In this document: one piece after another, positions 13,494-61,671 of the stretch
Numbering within the stretch: position 1 is the stretch's first letter
Layout: each line of letters begins with the position of its first letter
Assembly: GCA_902626065.1 (NCBI GenBank)
Contig: CACODT010000001.1
Coordinates: 221,728-285,727, forward strand
Direction of reading: 5' to 3'
Source: an uncultured Candidatus Actinomarina sp.
GTDB lineage: Bacteria; Actinomycetota; Acidimicrobiia; Actinomarinales; Actinomarinaceae
Length of the DNA: 64,000 nt
Program-made: the position numbers and the translations under genes
Notes under the pieces: generated by a model
The model's input: only the letters and a program-made list of their open reading frames with translations
Database searches by the model: none
Told to the model about the DNA's origin: nothing

Positions 13494-14873
13494 TTATGAA
13501 CATGCTCCTGAAGTCCAATCGTATGATTTGGCTGTTGAGCCTACATAACCTTCTGCAAGTACTCTTTGACCGCTACCAATTGAACCATCGGGAATACCGA
13601 TATATGCTTGGGCATCAGCTCTATCTTGACCTAATGTCCTAGATGGGAACATCCCATCTGATTCAACTGTTACATTTGCAGCTGCTCTTCTAATACCTGC
13701 TCTGGATATATCTCCACCTTTATAAGCTGCTTCTAAAACACCTTTTAAGTGATACTGAGATGACCAACCAGCAACTAGGAATGAGTTTGCACTATCTACT
13801 ATTTGACTCATTGTAGCTCTCATAACTGCATGACCAGGTGTGTCAGCCTCATATGGTGCTACACCAAGTCCCATTGCATAAATGGCTCCTGATTCAAATA
13901 ATCCTTTCAATGCAAAACCTTCTTGAACAAAAGCATCATTATAAGATGGTCCTGCAAGAATTGCGAAAGGTGTAATTCCTTGCTGTGCTGCTCCACCAGC
14001 AACTTGAGCCATAAATCCTGCATTAATTGCTGGATAATATGCATCAACTGGTTGAGTAACCATTAATCCGACCGCTTGAGCAACATCGAATTCAGTTGCA
14101 GGAGGTGTATATGTCCATGCTACTTCTAATCCGTTTGCCTCGGCTGCTTTAGCAACACCAGCTGCCCAATCTGAGCCGTAATCGCCAGCAAATCCCATGA
14201 TACCAACTGTCTTGATATCTCCAAGATTTGCTAAAGACCAGTCAACAGCATTCATTCCATCAGCACAATACTGACTTCCAAATTCGATGACTAAGCCTTT
14301 GTCAGAATCTTTATAAGACCAACCTGACCACCAGCTCATTGGAACTGCAACCATGTTATCTTTATCCATTTCATCTAAGATAAATAAAGTTTGTACAGTA
14401 CCTAACGACATTGATAGTGCTGCTACATCATCTTTTAATGCTGTATACCCTTCTAAATGTTTTTGTGGATTATATCCAGTGTCAAAACTTTCTTTTATTG
14501 CGACACTATATTCTCCAATTCCCCCAGCTGAGTTTGCCCAAAGCCAAAAAGCTCTTTGTGCAACCTCTAACCCTGGACCAGCAGGTGCGAAAGGTCCTGT
14601 AAAGTCATTTAGCATACCTAAATAAATACAACCTTTGTTTGGATCAGCACCTGTTGGTACTCCTCCAATTTCTGCCGGACAAGGATCTTCTGTAACTCCT
14701 GTTCCAGTTTTTACAGATGTTGCTGTTGTGACAGCAGGAGAATCTAGTGATTCAGCAGGTTCTTCAACTACTGCTTCTTCTACAACTTCTTCTTCAGCTG
14801 CTCCACCGCACGCAACAATAACTAAGGAAAGAATTGAAAAAATTATTATTCCTTGCTTACGCAATGAATTCAT
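13494..14873 (-). CDS. ABC transporter substrate-binding lipoprotein, LivK/PBP-type-I family
   Basis: Lipoprotein signal (LSLVIVACGG), an acidic low-complexity linker and a Leu/Ile/Val-binding-protein-like fold. A strong SD (AAGGGGGAG) precedes the ATG. Confidence 0.75.
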   Translation of the reverse strand: MNSLRKQGIIIFSILSLVIVACGGAAEEEVVEEAVVEEPAESLDSPAVTTATSVKTGTGVTEDPCPAEIGGVPTGADPNKGCIYLGMLNDFTGPFAPAGPGLEVAQRAFWLWANSAGGIGEYSVAIKESFDTGYNPQKHLEGYTALKDDVAALSMSLGTVQTLFILDEMDKDNMVAVPMSWWSGWSYKDSDKGLVIEFGSQYCADGMNAVDWSLANLGDIKTVGIMGFAGDYGSDWAAGVAKAAEANGLEVAWTYTPPATEFDVAQAVGLMVTQPVDAYYPAINAGFMAQVAGGAAQQGITPFAILAGPSYNDAFVQEGFALKGLFESGAIYAMGLGVAPYEADTPGHAVMRATMSQIVDSANSFLVAGWSSQYHLKGVLEAAYKGGDISRAGIRRAAANVTVESDGMFPSRTLGQDRADAQAYIGIPDGSIGSGQRVLAEGYVGSTAKSYDWTSGACS

Positions 14874-39102: not shown

Positions 39103-39435
39103 ATGAGTACTAATATTGAAAATTTTGAAAGTCTTGACATTAGAGTTGGAATAATCTTGTCAGCAGAAGTTTTTCATGAGGCAAAAAAGCCTGCTTACAT
39201 TCTAAAAATTGATTTTGGTGATGAAGTAGGTATTAAAAAGAGTAGTGCACAAATAACAAACTACGAAATAGAACAGCTCATTGGGTTTAAATGTATTGGA
39301 GTTATAAATCTGGGAGATAAACAAATTGGGCCAATTGTTAGTCAATGTCTAATACTTGGATCTGTTGATAATGAAGGAAATGTCCTTCTTCTTGAACCAA
39401 GTGCAAACTCGAACTTAGGAGACAGGGTATCCTAA
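39103..39435 (+). CDS. tRNA-binding domain protein (CsaA/YgjH-like)
   Basis: 110 aa OB-fold: LDIRVGIILSAEV...GIKKSSAQ...GVINLG, matching the EMAP/Trbp111 tRNA-binding domain. Confidence 0.7.
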   Translation: MSTNIENFESLDIRVGIILSAEVFHEAKKPAYILKIDFGDEVGIKKSSAQITNYEIEQLIGFKCIGVINLGDKQIGPIVSQCLILGSVDNEGNVLLLEPSANSNLGDRVS

Positions 39436-39905
39436 CTAACTAATGAATCGAACTTTTCGATGTTAAATGTACCAACCCTTTTATAAATTTTTTCACCAAA
39501 TTTATCTACAAGAACATAGGTTGGTGTGTACCTTAAATTATATTTTTTAGAAATTTCGAGGTAGCCTTTTTTTGACGCGTTAACCGATACTATTGGAATG
39601 TTTTTATGATTTTTTTGAAATTCATTAACTATGAATTTTGAAGCGGTGCAACCCAGTCAATAATCAGAGTAAAATTCTATTATTGTAAATTCGTGGTTTG
39701 AAAAATTATGATCATCTAAAATCAAACCTCTTTTCGAATTAAATAAATACAATCCAAAAAATGTTCCGATTACAAAGAAACTTAAGATATAAAGCACGAT
39801 AGAAGGTTCAAAAGCAATAAAGAAAATTCCTAATCCTATTATCCAACCCAAAGGGAGATAGATTAGGCTATATCTATTTACAAACTTTAAAAGAATTTTT
39901 TTCAT
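39432..39905 (-). CDS. membrane-anchored thioredoxin-fold protein with in-frame TGA at the CxxC position (candidate selenoprotein, or a pseudogene)
   Basis: The track ORF 39657..39905 (2 TM, ends ...FTIIEFYSDY) stops at a TGA at 39659..39657. The same frame continues 74 codons to a TAG at 39434..39432: LGCTASKFIVNEFQKNHKNIPIVSVNASKKGYLEISKKYNLRYTPTYVLVDKFGEKIYKRVGTFNIEKFDSLVS. This aligns with thioredoxin FWAEW-C-GP-C as FYSDY-[TGA]-LG-C, i.e. U-x-x-C, with a cis-Pro (YTPTYVL) region. Confidence 0.45.
39618..39638 (-). promoter_or_regulatory. candidate bacterial SECIS-like hairpin downstream of the in-frame UGA
   Basis: The mRNA AAAUUCAU-AGUUA-AUGAAUUU forms an 8-bp stem with a 5-nt loop containing GU. 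The stem begins 19 nt after the UGA and the loop G is 28 nt after the UGA (within the 16-37 nt window used for bSECIS). Confidence 0.3.
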
Positions 39906-39938
39906 ATTTTCAATCTTTTCACAAATTATACTTTAATT

Positions 39939-40349
39939 ATGGACCTGATAAGTGAACTCAAAAAAAATGGTAACCGCATTACTGAATCAAGAAGTACTCT
40001 TTGTAAAATTTTAGAAGATTCAGGCCATGAACACTTTACAGCTGAAGAACTCTATCAGTTGGCATTAAAAAGAGTAAAAGATATTGATTTAGCAACCGTA
40101 TACAGAACATTAGAAATACTTGAATCTTTAGAACTTGTGGAACACTCTCATCAACAACATGGTTCTGGGATTTACTATTTAAAAAAACAGGAAAGAAGTG
40201 CACATATTGTTTGTAAGGCATGTAATAAAATTGAAGATATTCCAATAAATATAATGAATTCTGTAGAGGAAATGATTGAAAAAAAATCAAACTTTAAGTT
40301 AGTAAATAATCATTTTGTTTACACAGGTCTTTGTAATAAATGTAAATAA
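39939..40349 (+). CDS. Fur-family metalloregulator (Zur/Nur/PerR-like)
   Basis: ATVYRTL recognition helix, HEHF and a CxxC...CxxC pair (CKACN, CNKCK). It is divergent from the Trx-like gene and directly upstream of ecfT/ecfA. Confidence 0.8.
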   Translation: MDLISELKKNGNRITESRSTLCKILEDSGHEHFTAEELYQLALKRVKDIDLATVYRTLEILESLELVEHSHQQHGSGIYYLKKQERSAHIVCKACNKIEDIPINIMNSVEEMIEKKSNFKLVNNHFVYTGLCNKCK

Positions 40350-40387
40350 ATATTTTTATTGCAATTGATTTGCATTAATATGTTGTC

Positions 40388-41152
40388 ATGTACTCAACTA
40401 CTCATGAACATCACTTATCAATTCATAAAAACTCTGAATTAAAAAATATTAAACCCCAGCAAAAAGTACTCGGGTGTTTTTTGATTGTACTTTCTATTGC
40501 ATTTTCAGATGTAAGAAATTTGTTTCAAATTTTATCTCACATATTTTTAGTTTTTTATATTCTATCTTTAACAAAAATTCCTTTGAAAACATATTTTAAA
40601 AGGTTAGCCCTCGATATACCTTTTATCTTATTTGCGTTATTTCTTCCATTTTTAAGTAGTGAAAATAATGATAAAGTTTTTGAATTCTTTTCATTTAGTA
40701 TCTATCAAACGGGCATAAATGATATGTTTACTATTCTATTTAAAGCAACCTTGGGTCTATCCGTTGGAATAATTTTAACGGCTGTTACTTCAAGCATGGA
40801 AATTATCTATGGACTTCAAAAATTAAAAGTTCCAAACATAATTATTGCAATTATGTCTTTTACAATTCGCTACATTGATGTATTTATTGACGAATTTAAA
40901 AGAGTTAAGATATCAATGGCGTCTAGGGGTTATGTTGAAAAAGGATTAAAGACACTATTACCAATAGCATATGCATCTGGAGCAATGTTAATAAGAGGGT
41001 ATGAAAGAGGTGAGAGAGTGTATCTATCAATGATATCTAGAGGTTTCAAAGGAAATATTGAATTTAAATCACGTACATATGAAGTTTCTTACAAATTTAA
41101 TATTTGTGTATTATTTTCGGTGGCTACCTTAATATTGGATAAAATTTTATGA
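40388..41152 (+). CDS. cbiQ: ECF transporter transmembrane (T) component, CbiQ/NikQ-like
   Basis: 254 aa, 5-6 TM. The conserved ARG-rich C-terminal loop (ISMASRGY...MISRGF) is typical of EcfT/CbiQ. Confidence 0.7.
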   Translation: MYSTTHEHHLSIHKNSELKNIKPQQKVLGCFLIVLSIAFSDVRNLFQILSHIFLVFYILSLTKIPLKTYFKRLALDIPFILFALFLPFLSSENNDKVFEFFSFSIYQTGINDMFTILFKATLGLSVGIILTAVTSSMEIIYGLQKLKVPNIIIAIMSFTIRYIDVFIDEFKRVKISMASRGYVEKGLKTLLPIAYASGAMLIRGYERGERVYLSMISRGFKGNIEFKSRTYEVSYKFNICVLFSVATLILDKIL

Positions 41153-41895
41153 AGAATTATTTAACAGTTAATAACCTTAGCTATTCATATCCAGATGGCC
41201 ATATAGCTTTAAAGGACGTAGGTTTTGCATTAGATGAGAAAGAGTCTCTAGCAATTTTAGGACCTAATGGAGCAGGAAAGACTACTCTAATACTTCATTT
41301 AAATGGAATTCTTGGAAATTTAACTAAAGAGATCAAAATTAGTAATTTTGAATATACAGATGAAAATATGGCCAACATTAGGAAAACAGTTGGAGTGGTA
41401 TTTCAGGACCCCGATGATCAATTATTTATGCCAACAGTAATTGAAGATGTTATGTTTGGGCCAAAAAATTTTGGATTTGATGAAAAAGAAGCTGAAAATC
41501 TTGCTATTGATGCACTCAAAAAAGTCAATATGATTGATTTTTTAGACAGACCCCCACACCATTTAAGTTATGGACAAAAACGTAAGGTTGCTATAGCTAG
41601 TGTTTTAGCATCAAAACCTAAATTACTAGTTTTGGATGAACCCGGTTCAAATCTTGATCCATCATCTAGAAGAGAACTTATAGAAATACTCAATAATTTA
41701 GATGTATCAAAAATTCTTGTAACTCATGACTTGCCTATGGCATTAGAGATCTGTAAGAGAAGTATTGTTTTAAATGATGGACAAATTACTCGTGATGACG
41801 ATACGTTAAATATTTTAAGAGATGATGAATTTATGAAAAATAATAGATTAGAGCTTCCATATGGATTTGCATTCCATCATTTAGGTGAAGAATAA
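41149..41895 (+). CDS. cbiO: ECF transporter ATPase component, CbiO/NikO-like
   Basis: GPNGAGKTT Walker A, LSYGQKRKVAIA signature and LVLDEPGSNLD Walker B. It overlaps cbiQ by 4 nt. Confidence 0.85.
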   Translation: MKNYLTVNNLSYSYPDGHIALKDVGFALDEKESLAILGPNGAGKTTLILHLNGILGNLTKEIKISNFEYTDENMANIRKTVGVVFQDPDDQLFMPTVIEDVMFGPKNFGFDEKEAENLAIDALKKVNMIDFLDRPPHHLSYGQKRKVAIASVLASKPKLLVLDEPGSNLDPSSRRELIEILNNLDVSKILVTHDLPMALEICKRSIVLNDGQITRDDDTLNILRDDEFMKNNRLELPYGFAFHHLGEE

Positions 41896-42876
41896 GAGTT
41901 ATCCTTCACAAAAGAAACTATTTTTTTTCTAGCCTCATTGGCTTCTTGAATTGGGAAAAATTGCCATCCATGCCATAAATTTTTCCATGTTTGAAGTTCA
42001 TAAGGAATATCATTTTTTTCTAACTTTTTACAAAACTCTATGGCATCGTTATACAGAAGTTCATCTGAACATACTTGGATTAAAGTATTTGGAAATGTCT
42101 CAATTTCTGCGAAGACGGGAGATAAAATTGGATTTGTGACTCCGTACTCTCCTGCATAATATTCGCCAACATTTTTAACACCATCAATAGCTAACAATAT
42201 ATCTTTATTCTTTAAGTATTTTCTGTCTTTATTCTCATCAGATAAATCTAGCCATGGGGACATTAGAATTAATTTATCAGGACTAACATCAAATGTTTCA
42301 TCTACCAAAATGCCCGTAGCTAAACCACCTCCTGCAGAGTCCCCCATCCAAATTGTCTGCTTATCCATCTCAAGCTTACTTATTATTTCAACTGCTTTTT
42401 TTTGCATCTTCATGTGCAGCAGGAAAAATAAACTCCGGAGTTAATGAGTATTCAAAATAATAAAAAGGAATTTCAAGCTCAAAACAAAATTGTGAGATAA
42501 TATTTTTGTACGCAGTAATGCTTCCGTTGTAATATCCTCCACCATGAAAATAAATACCAAATGTATCTTCCACAGCGTTTTTGGGGGTAAATTTATAGAT
42601 ATCCATCTCGCTTGTTCTAACTTTTTCAAGTTGAACATTTTCATTGTATTTATTTAATCTTGAACCGGTATAGTCGTAACCTATTCGGGCAGTCCTAGCA
42701 AAATCAACTCTATCTTGATATGTTTGTTGACTTTTTGGTTTATTAAGTAAAACTTTGTCTTTTAATTTTCTAATTGGAAGAATATTTTTATAGAGTTGTG
42801 TCCTTAAACTGATTGGAAGGCTTGGAATATAATCAAGAGTAAACTTTTCTAATATTTTTAATAATATATTTATCAC
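41877..42876 (-). pseudogene. HSL-family (alpha/beta-hydrolase fold-3) esterase disrupted by a frameshift in an A8 homopolymer
   Basis: The upstream ORF 42388..42876 carries HGGGYYNG (oxyanion HGGG). The downstream ORF 41877..42413 carries GDSAGGG (GDSAG nucleophile) and the later Asp/His region. The two frames overlap across caaaaaaaag at about 42392..42401, and one indel restores a ~330 aa esterase. Confidence 0.55.
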
Positions 42877-42927: not shown

Positions 42928-44013
42928 ATGCAAAAAGTAAATGGTTCAATTGCGATACTTGGTTCAGGAGAAACAAGTCCTAATTTAGTTTCTGTGCATA
43001 GAAATTTAATAAATAGAATCGATGGTGAAGTAATTGCTTCCTTAATAGATACGCCTTTTGGATTTCAAGAAAATGCTGATCAATTAGTTGATAAATTGAT
43101 TGAATTTTATGATGTAAGTCTAAATTTAGAAATTAACTTGGCTAGCTTTAGAAATAAGAAGTATTTTAAATCAGTTGAATACTTTGAGTTTATAAAAAAA
43201 ATTCAAAGTTCAAATTTTATATTTTCAGGACCCGGAAGTCCAAGTTATGCAACAAAAAATTGGATAGATACAGATGTACCAGAAATTTTTAAAGAAAGAC
43301 TCTACTCCGGAAGTAGCTTAATTTTTGCCAGTGCAGCAGCATCAACTTTAGGTATTAGAACAATTCCAGTCTATGAAATATACAAGGTTGGGATTGACCC
43401 CTACTGGGAGAAAGGTATAAATCTTCTTGAAGTTTTTGATATTGATTGTGTGGTTGTTCCACACTTCAATAATAAAGAAGGTGGAAACCATGACACGAGC
43501 TTAAGTTATCTTGGTGCTAAAAGAATGGAAATTCTACAAGAGATTCAACCAACTAATATATTAGGTATTGATGAGCATACAGCTCTTATAATTGATGCAA
43601 AAGAAAATCTTTTTGAAGTTGAAGGGTTAGGACAAGTCACTGTCATTAATCAAAATGAAACTCAAAACTTTAAGAATGGCGAGAAATATAATTTAAATGA
43701 TCTTAGAAAGTTATTAGAAAATACTGAAATAAAATCTATTAAAGCAAATGCTGACAATGATCAAAATTCTCAAGATGAACAAGTTGAAGATGTTTTAAGA
43801 AAAGAAATAGCTGAATTAAGATTGGAAATTGAAAAGAATAATAAAAATTCAGAAAATATAAATAATTTAATCAATAAATTAATTACTTACCGTATAGAAC
43901 TTAGATCATCTCAAAAATATGAAGAATCAGATATCGTTAGAGATTTTCTTACAGAATCAAATATAGAAATTGAAGATGATAAGAATTCTTCCAGCTGGAA
44001 GTTTAAAGATTAA
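42928..44013 (+). CDS. hypothetical protein; N-terminal domain possibly class-I glutamine amidotransferase/peptidase S51-like, C-terminal coiled-coil
   Basis: ILGSGETSP and FSGPGSPS Gly-rich loops. The last ~100 aa are charged heptad-like (EIAELRLEIEKNNKN...). Confidence 0.3.
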   Translation: MQKVNGSIAILGSGETSPNLVSVHRNLINRIDGEVIASLIDTPFGFQENADQLVDKLIEFYDVSLNLEINLASFRNKKYFKSVEYFEFIKKIQSSNFIFSGPGSPSYATKNWIDTDVPEIFKERLYSGSSLIFASAAASTLGIRTIPVYEIYKVGIDPYWEKGINLLEVFDIDCVVVPHFNNKEGGNHDTSLSYLGAKRMEILQEIQPTNILGIDEHTALIIDAKENLFEVEGLGQVTVINQNETQNFKNGEKYNLNDLRKLLENTEIKSIKANADNDQNSQDEQVEDVLRKEIAELRLEIEKNNKNSENINNLINKLITYRIELRSSQKYEESDIVRDFLTESNIEIEDDKNSSSWKFKD

Positions 44014-57966: not shown

Positions 57967-59763
57967 TTATTCTACAGTAACTGACTTTGCAAGGTTTCTT
58001 GGTTGATCAATCGATTGGCCATTCTTGTTAGCCACGTGATAAGCAATAAATTGTAGAGGTATGATCGAGATCAAAGTAGTTAGTAATTCATTACTATCTG
58101 GTAGAGCGACATAATCATTTGATATATTCTCAAGTTTCTCTGACTCACTATCTCCAATAGCAATTACATATGCTCCCCTAGCAATAACCTCTTGTACATT
58201 ACTTGTCGTCTTATCAAGTAGATGATTTTGACTAGCAGTAACTATTACAGGGGTTCCTTCTTCTATTAAAGCGAGTGTGCCGTGTTTAAGCTCTCCTGCT
58301 GCTAATGCCTCAGCATGAAGATAGGAAATTTCTTTTAATTTTAAGGCACCTTCAGCTGCTAAAGCATAATCTAATCCTCGACCAATAAAATAGATATCAT
58401 TCTTTTTATAGATTTTTTCAGATATTTCTTTTATTTGACCTTCACAAGCCATGGTCTGATCTATTAGGTTTGGGAGTTCTGCAATTTCATCAAATAAAAC
58501 ATCTAACTTATTTTGAGCGTCCCAGTGTTTTGCTATAACAAGCTGAGAAACAAGCATACCTAAATAAGCTTTAGTAGAAGCTACGCCTATCTCTGGACCT
58601 ACATGTAAATAAAATACACTATCAGCCATTCTTGCTAGCGAACTACCAACCACATTTACTAAAGCAAGAACATGTGAGCCATTTTCCTTTAATAATTCTG
58701 TAGCAGCAATAGTGTCCATGGTTTCTCCAGACTGGGAAATTACAATACCTAAATCGTTTTTTCCCACGATTGGTTCTCTATATCTAAACTCGGAAGCAAG
58801 CTCAACACTTACCGGAACTCCAAGAACTTTCTCAAATAGGTCTTTTCCAAACAAACCGGCATGATAGGCTGTTCCGCATGCAACAATCCAAATTTTTTCA
58901 AATTTTGAAGCCTCGTCTAACTTAATCGGGATTTCATCTGAGGATGCTTCAAGCCTTCCCGATAAAGTTCTTTCGATTACCTCAGATTGTTCAAGTATTT
59001 CCTTATACATAAAATGGTCATACCCTGACTTCTCTGCTTCAGATACCTCCCAATCAATTTCTTGAATTTCTCTCTGGATTTCATTTAATTCAGAGTCGAA
59101 CAACTTATATTTACCATTTTTAATTTCTACAAAATCACCGTTTTCAAGAAATATCATTTTCTTTGTATGTTCCAAGATTGCTGCTGAATCAGATGCTAGA
59201 AAAACCTCATTATCACCAACTCCAAGAACTAAAGGACTCATTAATCTTCCTGCAACAATAGTGTCCTCTTCTTTAGTTGTAGTTACAACAAGGGCATATG
59301 TTCCCTCAAGTGTTTTTGCTACATCTACGACTGTTTTTAAAAGATTTCCATTCCATTTTCTGCTTAACTCTATAGCTACGACTTCCGTGTCGGTGTCTGA
59401 ATTAAATTTAAATCCGTCGTTTATAAGATCTTTCTTGATTTCTGCATAATTCTCAATAATGCCATTGTGAATGATTGCAAATTCATCATTGTTGTCTGAA
59501 TGTGGATGTGCATTCACATCATTTGGTACTCCATGAGTTGCCCATCTTGTATGACCAATCCCAATGTTTCCTAAAATTTGCTTATCTTCTAAATGTTCTT
59601 TTAAGACATCGAGTTTACCCTCTTTTTTTTCAATCGTAATTTTGCTTCCATCAGAAATTGCTATTCCTGCCGAATCATATCCCCGATATTCCAAACGAGA
59701 AAGACCATTGATTAAAATTGGTAAAGGTTCTTTAGGGCCTGAATACCCTACAATTCCACACAC
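57967..59763 (-). CDS. glmS: glutamine--fructose-6-phosphate aminotransferase
   Basis: GTG start then CGIVGY (N-terminal Cys nucleophile), two SIS domains and a C-terminal ...KSVTVE. An SD (GGAG) lies 5 nt upstream. Confidence 0.95.
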   Translation of the reverse strand: MCGIVGYSGPKEPLPILINGLSRLEYRGYDSAGIAISDGSKITIEKKEGKLDVLKEHLEDKQILGNIGIGHTRWATHGVPNDVNAHPHSDNNDEFAIIHNGIIENYAEIKKDLINDGFKFNSDTDTEVVAIELSRKWNGNLLKTVVDVAKTLEGTYALVVTTTKEEDTIVAGRLMSPLVLGVGDNEVFLASDSAAILEHTKKMIFLENGDFVEIKNGKYKLFDSELNEIQREIQEIDWEVSEAEKSGYDHFMYKEILEQSEVIERTLSGRLEASSDEIPIKLDEASKFEKIWIVACGTAYHAGLFGKDLFEKVLGVPVSVELASEFRYREPIVGKNDLGIVISQSGETMDTIAATELLKENGSHVLALVNVVGSSLARMADSVFYLHVGPEIGVASTKAYLGMLVSQLVIAKHWDAQNKLDVLFDEIAELPNLIDQTMACEGQIKEISEKIYKKNDIYFIGRGLDYALAAEGALKLKEISYLHAEALAAGELKHGTLALIEEGTPVIVTASQNHLLDKTTSNVQEVIARGAYVIAIGDSESEKLENISNDYVALPDSNELLTTLISIIPLQFIAYHVANKNGQSIDQPRNLAKSVTVE

Positions 59764-59785: not shown

Positions 59786-59940
59786 GGTTAAAATAAAGAC
59801 TGCTTTAAATTGTCTCTGTTCAAAAATTTCTCTTTGTTTTTAAACAATTTATATCGACCGCAGAGCCGAGTATGCATCCGCCGAATTTTTCGATAACATA
59901 CTTCCTCGTCACCTCGTTAAAGGCCAGGCGCTATATTGCT
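59786..59940 (-). ncRNA. glmS ribozyme (GlcN6P-dependent self-cleaving riboswitch) in the glmS leader
   Basis: The minus strand carries AUAGCGCCUGGCC...AACGAGGUGACGAGGAAGUAUGUUAUCGAAAAAUUCGGCGGAUGCAUACUCGG. These match glmS ribozyme core elements (AGCGCC at the cleavage site, GACGAGGA and UUAUCGAAUUUUCGGCGGAUGC). The 3' boundary is approximate. Confidence 0.75.
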
Positions 59941-59969
59941 CGTTATAAAGAGTATATCGATAAGTATGG

Positions 59970-61274
59970 TTAATTTAGGTATTTATTAATTTTTGTAATA
60001 AGCTCATTTGAAAAATCTTCCATAGCTTCATTACTTTTAGCCTCAACAAGTACACGCAATAATGGTTCTGTCCCTGAATTACGTATTAAATATCTTCCAT
60101 CTAAATCTTTTTTTATTGACATGTCTAAAGCTATCTGGTTGATGTATTCTAATTCTTCGTCATTTAATTTATTTTTTAGTTCTAGGTTTGTCAGTTTTTG
60201 TGGGTATTCATAAAGATTCTCGCTCTTAAAATCACTCAAAGCTACACCGAAGTGTTGCATAGCTTTCAAAACATAGATTAATGTAACTAGACCGTCACCA
60301 ACTGGTAATAAGTCAGAAATAATGATGTGACCAGACTGTTCTCCACCTAAAGCAGCATCATATTTTTTCATTGCTTCTGCAACATATTTATCACCAACTG
60401 GAGTTTCAATAAGATCAAAATTAAATTTTTCTATGGCTTGTTTAAAGCCATAATTTGACATTACCGTACTAACAACAATGTTATTGGTAAGCTGATTAAC
60501 CTCTGATAAATATTTTGAAAGAATTGTTAATATCAGATCTCCATTTACAATATCTCCATTTTCATCAACCATTATTAATCTATCGGCATCACCATCAAAA
60601 GATGCGCCAATTTCACCCTTTTCTATATTTTTTTGTAGATTCTCAGGAACTGTTGCTCCACAGTCTTCATTAATATTTAAGCCATCCGGTTGATTATTGA
60701 TAATTCTGTAATTTGCATTTTTTTTATCAAATAACTCTTTTATGACTGTTGATGCTGATCCGTTTGCTGCATCGATGAGTATTTGAAAATTACTAAAATC
60801 AATATCTGTAACCTTATCAAGAAAATTAAGATACTCATGATGTCCATCACTTAAATTAATTATTTGAGAATGTTGATTTGGTAGTTCTAAACTTTCGATA
60901 TTTTTTTCAATTGATATTTCATCATCATCATCTAATTTTGATCCGTTTTCTTGAATTAACTTTATGCCGTTATATTCAGCAGGATTATGTGAAGCAGAAA
61001 TTATAATTCCAAGATCGTAATTAAATTTTTTCAAAATTATAGGCATTGAACCAGAAGGTAAAACTCCATGATTAAAAATATTTACTTTGCTTGAAAATCC
61101 TATGGAAATCCAATTAAGAATTTCATCTGAAGATGAACGTGTATCTGAAATGACAGCAATATTTTTGGGATTTATATGTTGTTCAACAGATGCGGATATT
61201 TTGGATATGAGATCTTGACTTAAAGTATCGTTAGGTATTCCCCTAATACCATCAGTACCAAAATACTTCTTCAA
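59970..61274 (-). CDS. glmM: phosphoglucosamine mutase
   Basis: KKYFGTDGIRG and the ASHNPAEYNGIK phosphoserine loop. The start is placed at the TTG at 61274 (giving MKKYFGTDGIRG), just downstream of the rpsI stop. The track's ATG would overlap rpsI by 74 nt. Confidence 0.9.
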   Translation of the reverse strand: MKKYFGTDGIRGIPNDTLSQDLISKISASVEQHINPKNIAVISDTRSSSDEILNWISIGFSSKVNIFNHGVLPSGSMPIILKKFNYDLGIIISASHNPAEYNGIKLIQENGSKLDDDDEISIEKNIESLELPNQHSQIINLSDGHHEYLNFLDKVTDIDFSNFQILIDAANGSASTVIKELFDKKNANYRIINNQPDGLNINEDCGATVPENLQKNIEKGEIGASFDGDADRLIMVDENGDIVNGDLILTILSKYLSEVNQLTNNIVVSTVMSNYGFKQAIEKFNFDLIETPVGDKYVAEAMKKYDAALGGEQSGHIIISDLLPVGDGLVTLIYVLKAMQHFGVALSDFKSENLYEYPQKLTNLELKNKLNDEELEYINQIALDMSIKKDLDGRYLIRNSGTEPLLRVLVEAKSNEAMEDFSNELITKINKYLN

Positions 61275-61281
61275 TGAATTA

Positions 61282-61671
61282 TTATCTTTTAGTAAATTGC
61301 TCTGCTCTACGGGCTTTCTTAAGTCCGTATTTTTTTCTTTCAACTTTGCGAGCATCTCTAGTAAGTAGGCCTGCTTTTTTTAGTTTTGGTCTAAGTTCTG
61401 GATCAAATTGAATTAAAGCGCGTGAAATACCTAAAGCTACAGCATCAGCTTGAGCAGATAATCCACTTCCGTTGACATTAACTTTTAAATCAAACTTTTT
61501 TTCCATACCAACGACATTGAAAGGTTTATTGATTGTCATTCTCATTGATGGACTTGGAAAATAATTTTCTATTGATTTACCATTAAATTCAAAATTTCCA
61601 TCGCCTTCACTTAACATAACTCTTGCAACAGATGTTTTTCTTCTTCCTGTTCCTAATATTGTTTTACTCAT
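61282..61671 (-). CDS. rpsI: 30S ribosomal protein S9
   Basis: GTGRRKTSVARV...GGGLSAQADA...KKYGLKKARRAEQFTKR. Confidence 0.95.
   Translation of the reverse strand: MSKTILGTGRRKTSVARVMLSEGDGNFEFNGKSIENYFPSPSMRMTINKPFNVVGMEKKFDLKVNVNGSGLSAQADAVALGISRALIQFDPELRPKLKKAGLLTRDARKVERKKYGLKKARRAEQFTKR

What the first reader, a model, noticed from the sequence alone, without database searches (positions are those of the whole stretch)
39432..39905. Thioredoxin-fold membrane protein with in-frame TGA replacing the catalytic Cys (U-x-x-C) plus SECIS-like hairpin: candidate selenoprotein
The 82-aa track ORF (2 TM, ending IIEFYSDY) stops at a TGA. The same frame continues for 74 more codons with a clean thioredoxin fold to a TAG. 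The TGA falls exactly where the nucleophilic Cys of WCxxC would be, giving FYSDY-[TGA]-LGC, and the downstream cis-Pro region (RYTPTYVLVD) is preserved. An 8-bp/5-nt-loop hairpin with GU in the loop starts 19 nt after the UGA, which matches bacterial SECIS geometry. Intact downstream coding potential argues against random decay. Sec use in a streamlined low-GC actinobacterium would be notable. The gene is divergent from a Fur/PerR-family regulator.
Basis: partly seen in the sequence, partly recalled or inferred. Interest (0 to 1): 0.75.

Follow-up and report, generated by a model that had tools for sequence, protein, structure and literature searches.

The report
Membrane-anchored thioredoxin-like selenoprotein gene
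A small membrane-anchored thioredoxin-like gene of the abundant marine bacterium Ca. Actinomarina almost certainly reads its internal TGA "stop" as selenocysteine; this is a real but unsurprising addition to a well-known class of selenoproteins, and public protein databases mistranslate it.

Summary
Window 39432..39905 (-) is one 157-codon gene: two TM helices plus a thioredoxin fold, with TGA at codon 83 where the first Cys of CxxC would sit (Y-U-L-G-C).

- **Conservation:** the TGA is present in all 103 Actinomarina-type loci examined (58 distinct contexts, down to 55% aa identity) and in six far more distant lineages.
- **Cys homologues:** remote homologues with the same architecture carry a true CxxC, with Cys in that column.
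- **Translation:** the sequence downstream of the TGA is under purifying selection (dN/dS about 0.15).
- **Hairpin:** a 7-8 bp hairpin with a 5-nt AGUUA loop starts 19 nt after the UGA. Its synonymous sites are frozen, and 6 of 7 pairs show compensatory changes across lineages. It meets the geometric bSECIS criteria but is weak (-4.4 kcal/mol).
- **Genetic code:** TGA is an ordinary stop elsewhere in the window.
- **Machinery:** no Sec machinery lies in this 64 kb. A 2026 preprint reports selA, selB, selC and selD in all 84 complete Actinomarina genomes.

More than 55 database protein clusters show "W" at this position, an artefact of code-4 gene calling. The gene is a new, uncurated member of the known Trx-fold UxxC selenoprotein class. 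The suggested PerR link is unsupported.

The parts
39432..39905 (-). Complete selenoprotein gene: 157 sense codons (ATG at 39903..39905, Sec-TGA at codon 83) plus the TAG stop at 39432..39434.
   Evidence: Translation. Same length and frame in 24 copies. dN/dS is 0.06 for the N-terminal part and about 0.15 for the part after the TGA.
39657..39659 (-). In-frame TGA (codon 83), the proposed selenocysteine codon. It is the first position of the U-L-G-C redox motif.
   Evidence: TGA in 103 of 103 loci and in 6 distant lineages. It aligns with Cys of CxxC in remote homologues and with Cys32 of WCGPC in solved thioredoxins.
39648..39650 (-). Codon 86 (TGC), the resolving Cys of the UxxC motif.
   Evidence: Invariant in all alignments.
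39618..39638 (-). SECIS-like hairpin AAAUUCAU-AGUUA-AUGAAUUU. The conserved 7-bp core is 39619..39637. The 5-nt loop has G at position 2 followed by U. The apical loop starts 26 nt after the UGA.
   Evidence: Lowest nucleotide entropy in the gene, and synonymous sites are frozen in codons 89-95 while 12 of 13 flanking codons vary (Fisher p=1e-4). 89% of cells are paired, against 12-55% in slid controls. Six pairs carry double changes, and 0 of 500 shuffles reach the covariation score. RNAalifold predicts the same helix.
39741..39869 (-). N-terminal membrane hairpin: two TM helices (about residues 13-31 and 36-55) joined by a 3-4 residue loop (EPS).
   Evidence: Hydropathy and charge distribution. 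AlphaFold helices at 16-31 and 36-57.
39435..39698 (-). Thioredoxin-fold domain (residues 70-157), with U83 and C86 at the N-terminus of helix 84-99 and T127-P128 as the cis-Pro motif.
   Evidence: Pfam PF00085. AF2 pLDDT 83.7 with strands and helices in the order E73-79, H84-99, E105-109, H116-121, E129-134, E139-144, H149-156. Top Foldseek hits are thioredoxins, TM about 0.75.

Best explanation
The gene encodes a 157-residue thioredoxin-fold thiol-disulfide oxidoreductase in which the nucleophilic active-site Cys is replaced by selenocysteine (motif Y-U-L-G-C). An N-terminal two-helix hairpin anchors it in the membrane.

**Decoding (inferred from established bacterial Sec biology).** The ribosome reaches UGA83. 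The hairpin 19 nt downstream acts as a bacterial SECIS and recruits SelB-GTP-Sec-tRNA(Sec). Sec is inserted in competition with RF2 termination, so some truncated 82-aa product is probably made as well.

**Chemistry (inferred from the thioredoxin family).** The selenolate of U83, at the N-terminus of helix alpha1, attacks a substrate disulfide or oxidised thiol. The resulting selenenylsulfide is resolved by C86.

**Topology (inferred from the positive-inside rule).** Both termini, and therefore the Trx domain, face the cytoplasm. The substrate is unknown.

**Shown here:**
- a conserved UGA;
- a Sec/Cys pair in homologues;
- translation of the downstream part, from purifying selection;
- a conserved, covarying hairpin;
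- the thioredoxin fold.

**Not shown here:** Sec machinery in this particular genome, actual selenium incorporation, and orientation in the membrane.
For: 1. **UGA conserved.** TGA at codon 83 in the window, 17 GTDB Actinomarina genomes, 6 contigs of the identical protein and 80 metagenome loci. That is 103 of 103 loci, 58 distinct contexts, down to 55% aa identity. It is also present in 6 lineages only 25-40% identical, with GC 27-44%.
2. **Cys homologues.** Remote same-architecture homologues (about 160 aa, 2 TM plus Trx) have Cys in that column, for example FYSEYCVGC and SPYCLGC. There are 26 Cys forms against 13 UGA forms among representatives. DNA of two Cys forms reads TGC and TGT.
3. 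**Downstream part is translated.** dN/dS for codons 84-157 is about 0.15. There are no indels in 24 copies.
4. **Hairpin.** Synonymous sites are frozen exactly over it. Six of 7 pairs have compensatory changes, 89% of cells are paired, and shuffled and slid controls fail. In UGA forms residues 91/95 are always codon-pairable (P-R, F-E, L-E, S-R) and K90 is invariant, whereas in Cys forms these positions are free.
5. **bSECIS geometry.** The hairpin meets the geometric criteria quoted in PMC13188914: loop 5 nt, stem 7-8 bp, G then U at loop positions 2-3, and 26 nt from UGA to loop.
6. **Standard code otherwise.** TGA ends 18 of 71 selected genes in the window, and neighbouring genes in all lineages have no in-frame TGA and use TGG for Trp.
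7. **Fold.** Pfam, AF2 and Foldseek all indicate a thioredoxin fold.
8. **Machinery in the genus.** The preprint reports selC, selA, selD and a divergent selB in all 84 complete Actinomarina genomes, with about 5 predicted selenoproteins per genome.
Against: - **No machinery in the window.** No tRNA-Sec, selA, selB or selD lies in this 64 kb. Their presence rests on a non-peer-reviewed preprint about the genus, not on this genome.
- **Weak hairpin.** It folds at -4.4 kcal/mol alone and -7.3 in a 60-nt context, with z only -0.9 to -2.3. This misses the -7.5 kcal/mol cut-off of the consensus bSECIS model.
- **Loop GU is ambiguous.** The invariant loop G-U is also the first two bases of an invariant Val codon that Cys forms share, so it cannot be credited to SECIS function alone.
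- **Thin Cys-form control.** The two Cys-form DNAs still pair at 5-6 of 7 positions in the same register.
- **One broken pair.** A low-coverage contig (L104) carries an A.A mismatch in the stem.
- **No Rfam match**, as expected because Rfam holds no bacterial SECIS model.
Confidence: 0.88

Rival explanations
1. The UGA is read through without selenocysteine. Near-cognate decoding (for example Trp-tRNA or Cys-tRNA) would be stimulated by the downstream hairpin, giving a W/CxxC protein.
For: UGA is the leakiest stop codon in bacteria (general knowledge). The hairpin is weak for a SECIS. No Sec machinery was seen in the window.
Against: The recoded position is exactly the catalytic Cys of a CxxC motif, which is the signature Sec/Cys pair. 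The same UGA plus hairpin recurs in unrelated lineages. Sec machinery is reported throughout the genus. A Trp at the nucleophile position would inactivate the enzyme.
Confidence: 0.06
2. The TGA is a true stop. The functional product would be the 82-aa two-TM peptide, and the downstream Trx-like sequence would be untranslated or expressed separately.
For: Standard gene callers produce this ORF, and truncated entries exist in catalogues (P0059, P0061, P0062). RF2 termination will compete with Sec insertion, so some 82-aa product is likely.
Against: The downstream 74 codons are in frame in every copy and carry no indels. Their dN/dS is about 0.15, and they complete a confident thioredoxin fold only when joined to strand beta1, which is encoded upstream of the TGA. 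No start codon follows the TGA at the domain boundary.
Confidence: 0.03
3. The TGA is a sequencing or assembly error (TGG, TGT or TGC) or a recent nonsense mutation, which would make this copy a pseudogene.
For: Database proteins 99% identical read 'W'. The same assembly has a homopolymer frameshift 2.7 kb away.
Against: The DNA behind those 'W' proteins is TGA, and the look-up of encoding contigs reports that they do not translate to the query under code 11. More than 100 independent assemblies from SAGs, MAGs, Tara, GOS and JGI all have TGA.
Confidence: 0.01
4. The organism uses a genetic code in which TGA is a sense codon (code 4 Trp or code 25 Gly).
For: Low GC (30-36%) and a small genome. 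Metagenome gene callers chose code 4 for many of these contigs.
Against: TGA terminates 18 of 71 tightly packed genes in the window. Neighbouring genes have no in-frame TGA and use TGG for Trp. In L115 the code-4 call runs through the true TGA stop.
Confidence: 0.01

Closest known systems
Sec-containing thioredoxin and 'Trx-like' UxxC selenoproteins of bacteria (e.g. Treponema denticola Trx; 'Trx-like 1' and 'Trx-like 3' of the Sargasso/GOS selenoproteomes; PMC13188914, PMC2398784)
   Same: Thioredoxin fold. Sec replaces the N-terminal nucleophilic Cys of CxxC to give UxxC. A SECIS hairpin lies just downstream in the coding region. Cys-containing homologues exist. The family is abundant in marine surface metagenomes.
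   Different: It is not a canonical TrxA (TIGR01068 30.8 bits against a 96.8 cutoff; motif YULGC rather than WUGPC). It carries an N-terminal two-TM anchor. Whether it equals GOS 'Trx-like 3' (weak cd02950 similarity, 212 Sec and 183 Cys sequences) could not be checked, because the held copy of Dataset S1 is cut before the Trx-like sections.
Membrane-anchored thiol-disulfide oxidoreductases of the TlpA/ResA/StoA/CcmG type, and cyanobacterial TxlA/HCF164-like proteins
   Same: A Trx-fold domain with a CxxC-type motif tethered to the membrane. StoA appears among the Foldseek hits. There are weak NCBIfam hits to the thylakoid membrane factor slr1796 family.
   Different: Those proteins have a single N-terminal anchor and an extracytoplasmic domain. 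This one has two TM helices, and the charge distribution predicts a cytoplasmic Trx domain. No model of those families reaches its cutoff. It also lacks the extra insertions of the TlpA/ResA fold (classical Trx hits reach TM 0.75 against 0.54 for StoA).
E. coli fdhF-type bacterial SECIS, the consensus bSECIS model (Zhang and Gladyshev, summarised in PMC13188914)
   Same: A stem-loop inside the ORF immediately 3' of the UGA. It has a small apical loop with G then U at loop positions 2-3, and 26 nt between UGA and loop (allowed range 16-37).
   Different: The stem is very AU-rich and short, at -4.4 kcal/mol, which misses the model's -7.5 kcal/mol threshold. No bulged U or lower stem was identified. 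Binding by the divergent Actinomarina SelB is untested.
Selenoprotein candidates in 'Actinomarina, resolved' (bioRxiv 10.64898/2026.04.03.716425)
   Same: Same genus. The preprint reports universal Sec machinery and about 5 deep-Sep-predicted selenoproteins per genome, most of them uncharacterised.
   Different: The preprint names selD, a 78-aa family and a K07090 family. It never mentions a thioredoxin-like selenoprotein, found no SECIS elements, and its supplement does not list candidates. Whether this gene is among its 69 'families' is therefore unknown.

Membership tests
Bacterial selenoprotein gene (Sec-UGA recoding) | In-frame UGA conserved among orthologues, with an intact, selected reading frame downstream | tested here: met
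   103 of 103 loci plus 6 distant lineages have TGA. dN/dS downstream is about 0.15.
Bacterial selenoprotein gene (Sec-UGA recoding) | Homologues with Cys aligned to the UGA position | tested here: met
   26 remote same-architecture homologues have CxxC with Cys in that column. Two were confirmed as TGC and TGT in DNA.
Bacterial selenoprotein gene (Sec-UGA recoding) | bSECIS geometry: 3-9 nt apical loop, 4-16 bp stem, G in the first two loop positions, 16-37 nt from UGA to loop (PMC13188914) | tested here: met
   Loop of 5 nt (AGUUA), stem of 7-8 bp, G at loop position 2 followed by U, 26 nt spacing. Covariation supports the helix.
Bacterial selenoprotein gene (Sec-UGA recoding) | bSECIS stability: MFE at or below -7.5 kcal/mol | tested here: inconclusive
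   In the window the hairpin alone folds at -4.4 kcal/mol and the 60-nt UGA context at -7.3. Relatives range from -5.7 to -9.1, and GC-richer distant lineages from -8.8 to -19.1 in 66 nt.
Bacterial selenoprotein gene (Sec-UGA recoding) | selA, selB, selC (tRNA-Sec) and selD in the same genome | not testable with these tools
   None in the 64-kb window or in the 17 20-kb genome loci. A preprint reports all four in 84 of 84 complete Actinomarina genomes.
Bacterial selenoprotein gene (Sec-UGA recoding) | Selenium actually incorporated at the UGA position (75Se labelling or mass spectrometry) | not testable with these tools
   This needs an experiment.
Thioredoxin-fold superfamily (Pfam PF00085) | Profile match above the gathering score, a beta-alpha-beta-alpha-beta-beta-alpha fold, the redox motif at the N-terminus of helix alpha1, and a cis-Pro loop | tested here: met
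   PF00085 scores 28.7 against a 23.5 cutoff. The AF2 model has pLDDT 83.7 with U83 and C86 at the start of helix 84-99. Foldseek top hits are thioredoxins. T127-P128 is invariant.
Canonical thioredoxin TrxA (TIGR01068) | Equivalog score of at least 96.8 bits and a WCGPC-type motif | tested here: not met
   30.8 bits. The motif is Y-U-L-G-C, and an extra two-TM N-terminal region is present.
Curated Trx-like selenoprotein families in NCBIfam 20.0 (GOS_C NF045500, SaoT NF040730, HUIPC-motif NF047660, VPGUxxT NF041383, and others) | A match to the family model | tested here: not met
   None of these models appears at E<=0.01 for the window protein, two UGA-type relatives or three Cys-type relatives.
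Extracytoplasmic TlpA/ResA/StoA/CcmG membrane-anchored oxidoreductases | A single N-terminal anchor or signal with the Trx domain outside the cytoplasm, plus a family model match | tested here: not met
   Two TM helices and positive-inside charges place the domain in the cytoplasm (a prediction only). The window protein has no model match.
GOS 'Trx-like 3' selenoprotein family (PMC2398784) | Sequence identity with the entries in Dataset S1 | not testable with these tools
   The motif searches found nothing, but the held file is cut before any Trx-like section.
Alternative genetic code (code 4 or 25) | TGA used as a sense codon across genes and not as a stop | tested here: not met
   18 of 71 genes end in TGA. 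This is the only read-through candidate in the window. Neighbouring genes have no in-frame TGA.

The most novel reading that the evidence does not exclude
This may be the founding description of an uncurated selenoprotein family: a cytoplasm-facing, two-TM-anchored thioredoxin with the signature N-x-Y-S ... Y-S-[DN]-x-U-[LVI]-[GA]-C. It appears to be a core gene of Ca. Actinomarina and recurs with UGA in several other uncultured lineages. Its SECIS is an unusually minimal AU-rich 7-bp hairpin that falls below the stability threshold used by standard bSECIS predictors. That would imply the divergent Actinomarina SelB recognises a reduced element, and that AT-rich marine genomes hide more selenoproteins than current tools and code-4-contaminated catalogues reveal.
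Probability: 0.35. Interest if true: 0.55.

Novelty: new member of a known kind. Interest (0 to 1): 0.45.

Why it matters
Ca. Actinomarina is among the most abundant and most streamlined free-living marine bacteria. Keeping four Sec-machinery genes in a genome of about 1.1 Mb needs explaining by its client proteins.

This gene looks like one such client. It is present with UGA in every Actinomarina locus found, and it can now be described concretely: its fold, redox motif, membrane anchor and SECIS.

It also exposes a practical problem. Public protein catalogues hold dozens of clusters of this protein with a spurious Trp at the active site, because short low-GC contigs were translated with code 4. 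This hides selenoproteins and can falsely refute them.

Finally, the very weak AU-rich hairpin is a useful test case for bSECIS models and for the specificity of the divergent SelB.

Tried and rejected
- **Trp homologues, then rejected.** The first homologue search seemed to refute Sec, because all full-length hits read FYSDYWLGC. Checking the DNA overturned this: every copy is TGA.
- **Alternative genetic code.** Rejected, since TGA is a common stop and neighbouring genes have no in-frame TGA.
- **Sequencing error or pseudogene.** Rejected on more than 100 independent copies.
- **Sec machinery in the window and loci.** ARAGORN, Rfam and NCBIfam on the ten largest ORFs found only housekeeping genes, one tRNA-Met and a glmS ribozyme.
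- **Rfam on the gene.** A permissive-threshold scan gave nothing relevant.
- **Preprint supplement.** It holds no candidate list.
- **GOS Dataset S1.** A motif search gave no hits, but the file is truncated before the Trx-like families, so this is uninformative.
- **Cys-form DNA control.** With only two sequences it was weakly discriminating, at 5-6 of 7 pairs in register. The protein-level control on 26 Cys forms was clearer.
- **Regulator subtype.** Typing the Fur-family regulator as PerR, Fur or Zur failed, because every model scored far below its cutoff.
- **Thermodynamics.** Fold energies alone do not single out the hairpin (z -0.4 to -2.3). The case for it rests on conservation and covariation.
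Full report
**What is in the sequence.** On the minus strand, window 39905..39432 is a single reading frame of 157 sense codons. It is interrupted once, by TGA at codon 83 (window 39657..39659), and ends at TAG. Standard ORF calling gives only the first 82 codons.

With Cys placed at the TGA, the product passes the Pfam Thioredoxin gathering score (28.7 against 23.5 bits). In phmmer alignments to solved thioredoxins the TGA falls on the first Cys of WCGPC.

An AlphaFold2 model built on 18 homologues is confident (mean pLDDT 83.7, pTM 0.73). It shows two long N-terminal helices (16-31 and 36-57), followed by E73-79, H84-99, E105-109, H116-121, E129-134, E139-144 and H149-156. Residues 83 and 86 therefore sit at the N-terminus of the first helix of a thioredoxin fold. 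Foldseek against the PDB returns classical thioredoxins first (TM about 0.75 normalised to the target).

It starts at the 19th nucleotide after the UGA.

**Ordinary explanations excluded.** TGA is a normal stop in this genome. It terminates 18 of 71 tightly packed genes, and the 221 nt after this TGA are the only unexplained gap in the window.

The window is collinear over about 20 kb with Ca. Actinomarina single-cell and metagenome-assembled genomes, at up to 85.6% nucleotide identity.

**A false refutation, and its resolution.** The first homologue search returned more than 55 full-length 157-aa protein clusters. One was identical to the window protein apart from residue 83. All read Trp at residue 83 (FYSDYWLGC).

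The DNA says otherwise:
- All 17 GTDB Actinomarina genome loci have TGA.
- All six contigs that encode the identical 'W' protein have TGA, and the look-up tool reports that they do not translate to the query under code 11.
- All 80 metagenome loci have TGA.

That makes 103 of 103 loci, in 58 distinct sequence contexts, down to 55% amino-acid identity. The 'W' comes from metagenome gene callers choosing code 4 for short low-GC contigs. Truncated code-11 calls ending in ...EFYSDY exist too (P0059, P0061, P0062). Neighbouring genes on these contigs contain no in-frame TGA and use TGG for Trp.

**Evidence that the UGA is recoded as Sec.**

1. *The downstream part is translated.* There are no indels in 24 copies, and dN/dS for codons 84-157 is about 0.15, against 0.06 for the N-terminal part.

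2. *A Sec/Cys pair exists.* A full HMMER scan of 1.84 billion representatives found about 40 remote proteins of the same length and architecture. Twenty-six of them carry a true CxxC with Cys in the UGA column (FYSEYCVGC, SPYCLGC and similar). Some come from Chloroflexi/Anaerolineae MAGs and are annotated only as hypothetical or thioredoxin. Two of these were confirmed as TGC and TGT in DNA.

3. *The UGA recurs in distant lineages.* Thirteen remote proteins read 'W' in the same column. DNA was obtainable for six of these lineages, which are 25-40% identical to each other and have GC from 27 to 44%. All six have TGA at the homologous codon.

4. *The hairpin is under selection as RNA.*
   - Within Actinomarina, 12 of the 13 amino-acid-invariant codons flanking the UGA show synonymous variation, but none of codons 89-95 does (Fisher p=1e-4). 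The nucleotide-entropy minimum of the whole gene lies on the hairpin.
   - The few stem changes preserve pairing. U-A becomes U.G in several lineages. It becomes C-G wherever the 5' U is C (L069/L070, the P0058 lineage, P0028). A-U becomes G.U in L092.
   - Across the six distant lineages the stem sequence differs but the register is identical.
   - On a 29-sequence alignment, 89.2% of cells pair, against 12-55% when the partner is slid by 1-3 nt. Six pairs carry double changes, and no shuffle out of 500 reaches the observed covariation score.
   - RNAalifold independently predicts the same 7-bp helix, with compensatory changes in 6 of 7 pairs.
   - At the protein level the UGA forms always combine residues 91/95 as codon-pairable couples (P-R x9, F-E x2, L-E, S-R), with K90 invariant. 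In Cys forms position 95 is free (P-R in only 2 of 21) and K90 is present in 12 of 26.

5. *The geometry matches the consensus bSECIS model* quoted in a 2026 review (PMC13188914). The loop is 5 nt, the stem 7-8 bp, G is at loop position 2 followed by U, and 26 nt separate the UGA from the loop. Only 0.36-0.9% of TGA triplets in the window are followed by such a hairpin.

6. *The machinery is reported in the genus.* The window and the 17 genome loci contain no tRNA-Sec or sel genes. A 2026 preprint reports selC, selA, selD and a divergent selB in all 84 complete Actinomarina genomes, with about 5 predicted selenoproteins each (bioRxiv 10.64898/2026.04.03.716425).

**Caveats.**
- The hairpin is thermodynamically weak: -4.4 kcal/mol alone and -7.3 in a 60-nt context, with z-scores of -0.9 to -2.3. 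It misses the -7.5 kcal/mol criterion of the consensus model.
- The invariant loop G-U is also the first two bases of an invariant Val codon that Cys forms share.
- The two Cys-form DNAs still pair at 5-6 of 7 positions in register, with internal mismatches, and their MFE folds do not form the hairpin. With n=2 that control is thin.
- One low-coverage contig has an A.A mismatch in the stem.
- The Sec machinery was not verified in this genome, and the supporting source is a preprint.
- Selenium incorporation and membrane orientation are untested.

**Most likely mechanism.** SelB carrying Sec-tRNA(Sec) is recruited by the hairpin while the ribosome sits at UGA83. Sec is inserted in competition with RF2, so an 82-aa by-product is likely. 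The mature protein is anchored by a two-helix hairpin.

The N-tail carries four positive charges, the inter-helix loop is 3-4 residues long, and K-R follows TM2. By the positive-inside rule the Trx domain faces the cytoplasm (inference).

U83 would act as the nucleophile and C86 as the resolving residue of a UxxC thiol-disulfide oxidoreductase. This is inferred from the thioredoxin family. The substrate is unknown.

**Genomic context.** Within Actinomarina, synteny is conserved as Fur-family regulator, this gene, a CsaA-like tRNA-binding-domain protein, then an FMN reductase. This order is not kept in the distant lineages.

The Fur-family protein cannot be subtyped: Fur scores 90 bits and PerR 71 bits, both far below their cutoffs. 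It is co-oriented with an ECF CbiQ/ATPase pair.

**Comparison with what is known.** Trx-fold UxxC proteins are the commonest kind of bacterial selenoprotein and dominate marine selenoproteomes. In the GOS survey, 'Trx-like 1' had 321 sequences and 'Trx-like 3' had 212 Sec sequences against 183 Cys homologues (PMC2398784).

This protein works like those but does not belong to any curated family tested:
- It is not a canonical TrxA (TIGR01068 30.8 bits against 96.8).
- No NCBIfam selenoprotein model matches, including GOS_C, SaoT and the HUIPC-motif family.

Whether it equals GOS 'Trx-like 3' could not be tested, because the held Dataset S1 is cut before those sections. One of the loci found here is a GOS contig (L103, AACY020223329.1), so the sequence was available to that survey.

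The Actinomarina preprint does not mention a thioredoxin-like selenoprotein, found no SECIS elements, and lists no candidates.

**Verdict.** This is a real, well-supported selenoprotein gene and a new (uncurated) member of a known kind. Interest is moderate. It is unsurprising to a selenoprotein specialist, but it is useful as a concretely characterised Sec client in a very abundant streamlined bacterium. It is also an example of a minimal AU-rich SECIS, and a warning about code-4 artefacts in protein catalogues.

Noticed in passing
window 39657..39659; proteins P0001-P0056 and loci L018-L023, L104-L119: Public protein catalogues contain more than 55 clusters of this protein, plus distant relatives, with a spurious Trp at the active site. 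Gene callers translated short low-GC contigs with code 4; the DNA is TGA in every case. In L115 the code-4 call even runs through the true TGA stop.
   Followed up: yes
window 41877..42876 (-), homopolymer at 42396..42403: An alpha/beta-hydrolase (Abhydrolase_3) gene is split into two overlapping ORFs by a +1 frameshift in an A8 run. Six Actinomarina relatives have A7 (or an interrupted run) and an intact single gene. This is either a homopolymer assembly error or a strain-specific pseudogene.
   Followed up: yes
window 59796..59943 (-): A full-length glmS ribozyme (Rfam RF00234, 90.9 bits) sits directly upstream of glmS (57967..59763), with glmM further upstream (59970..61355).
   Followed up: no
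window 39906..39938: Only 33 nt separate the divergent start codons of the selenoprotein gene and the Fur-family regulator gene. Both promoters must overlap, or the transcripts are leaderless.
   Followed up: no
window 39939..41895 (+): The Fur-family regulator (not assignable to Fur, PerR or Zur) is co-oriented with, and immediately followed by, an ECF transporter T component (CbiQ, TIGR02454 above cutoff) and an ECF ATPase. No CbiM/CbiN-type S component was seen next to them.
   Followed up: partly
L104 (ERZ802844 contig, coverage 2.3): A singleton variant with F91I (UUC to AUC) creates an A.A mismatch in the SECIS stem. It is either a sequencing error or a deleterious allele.
   Followed up: partly
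window 13494..14873 (-) and 42928..44013 (+): A 459-aa ORF has no NCBIfam hit at E<=1e-5. A 361-aa ORF has no Pfam hit and only weak, sub-cutoff NCBIfam similarities (cyanophycinase, and the C-terminal region of CysS).
   Followed up: no
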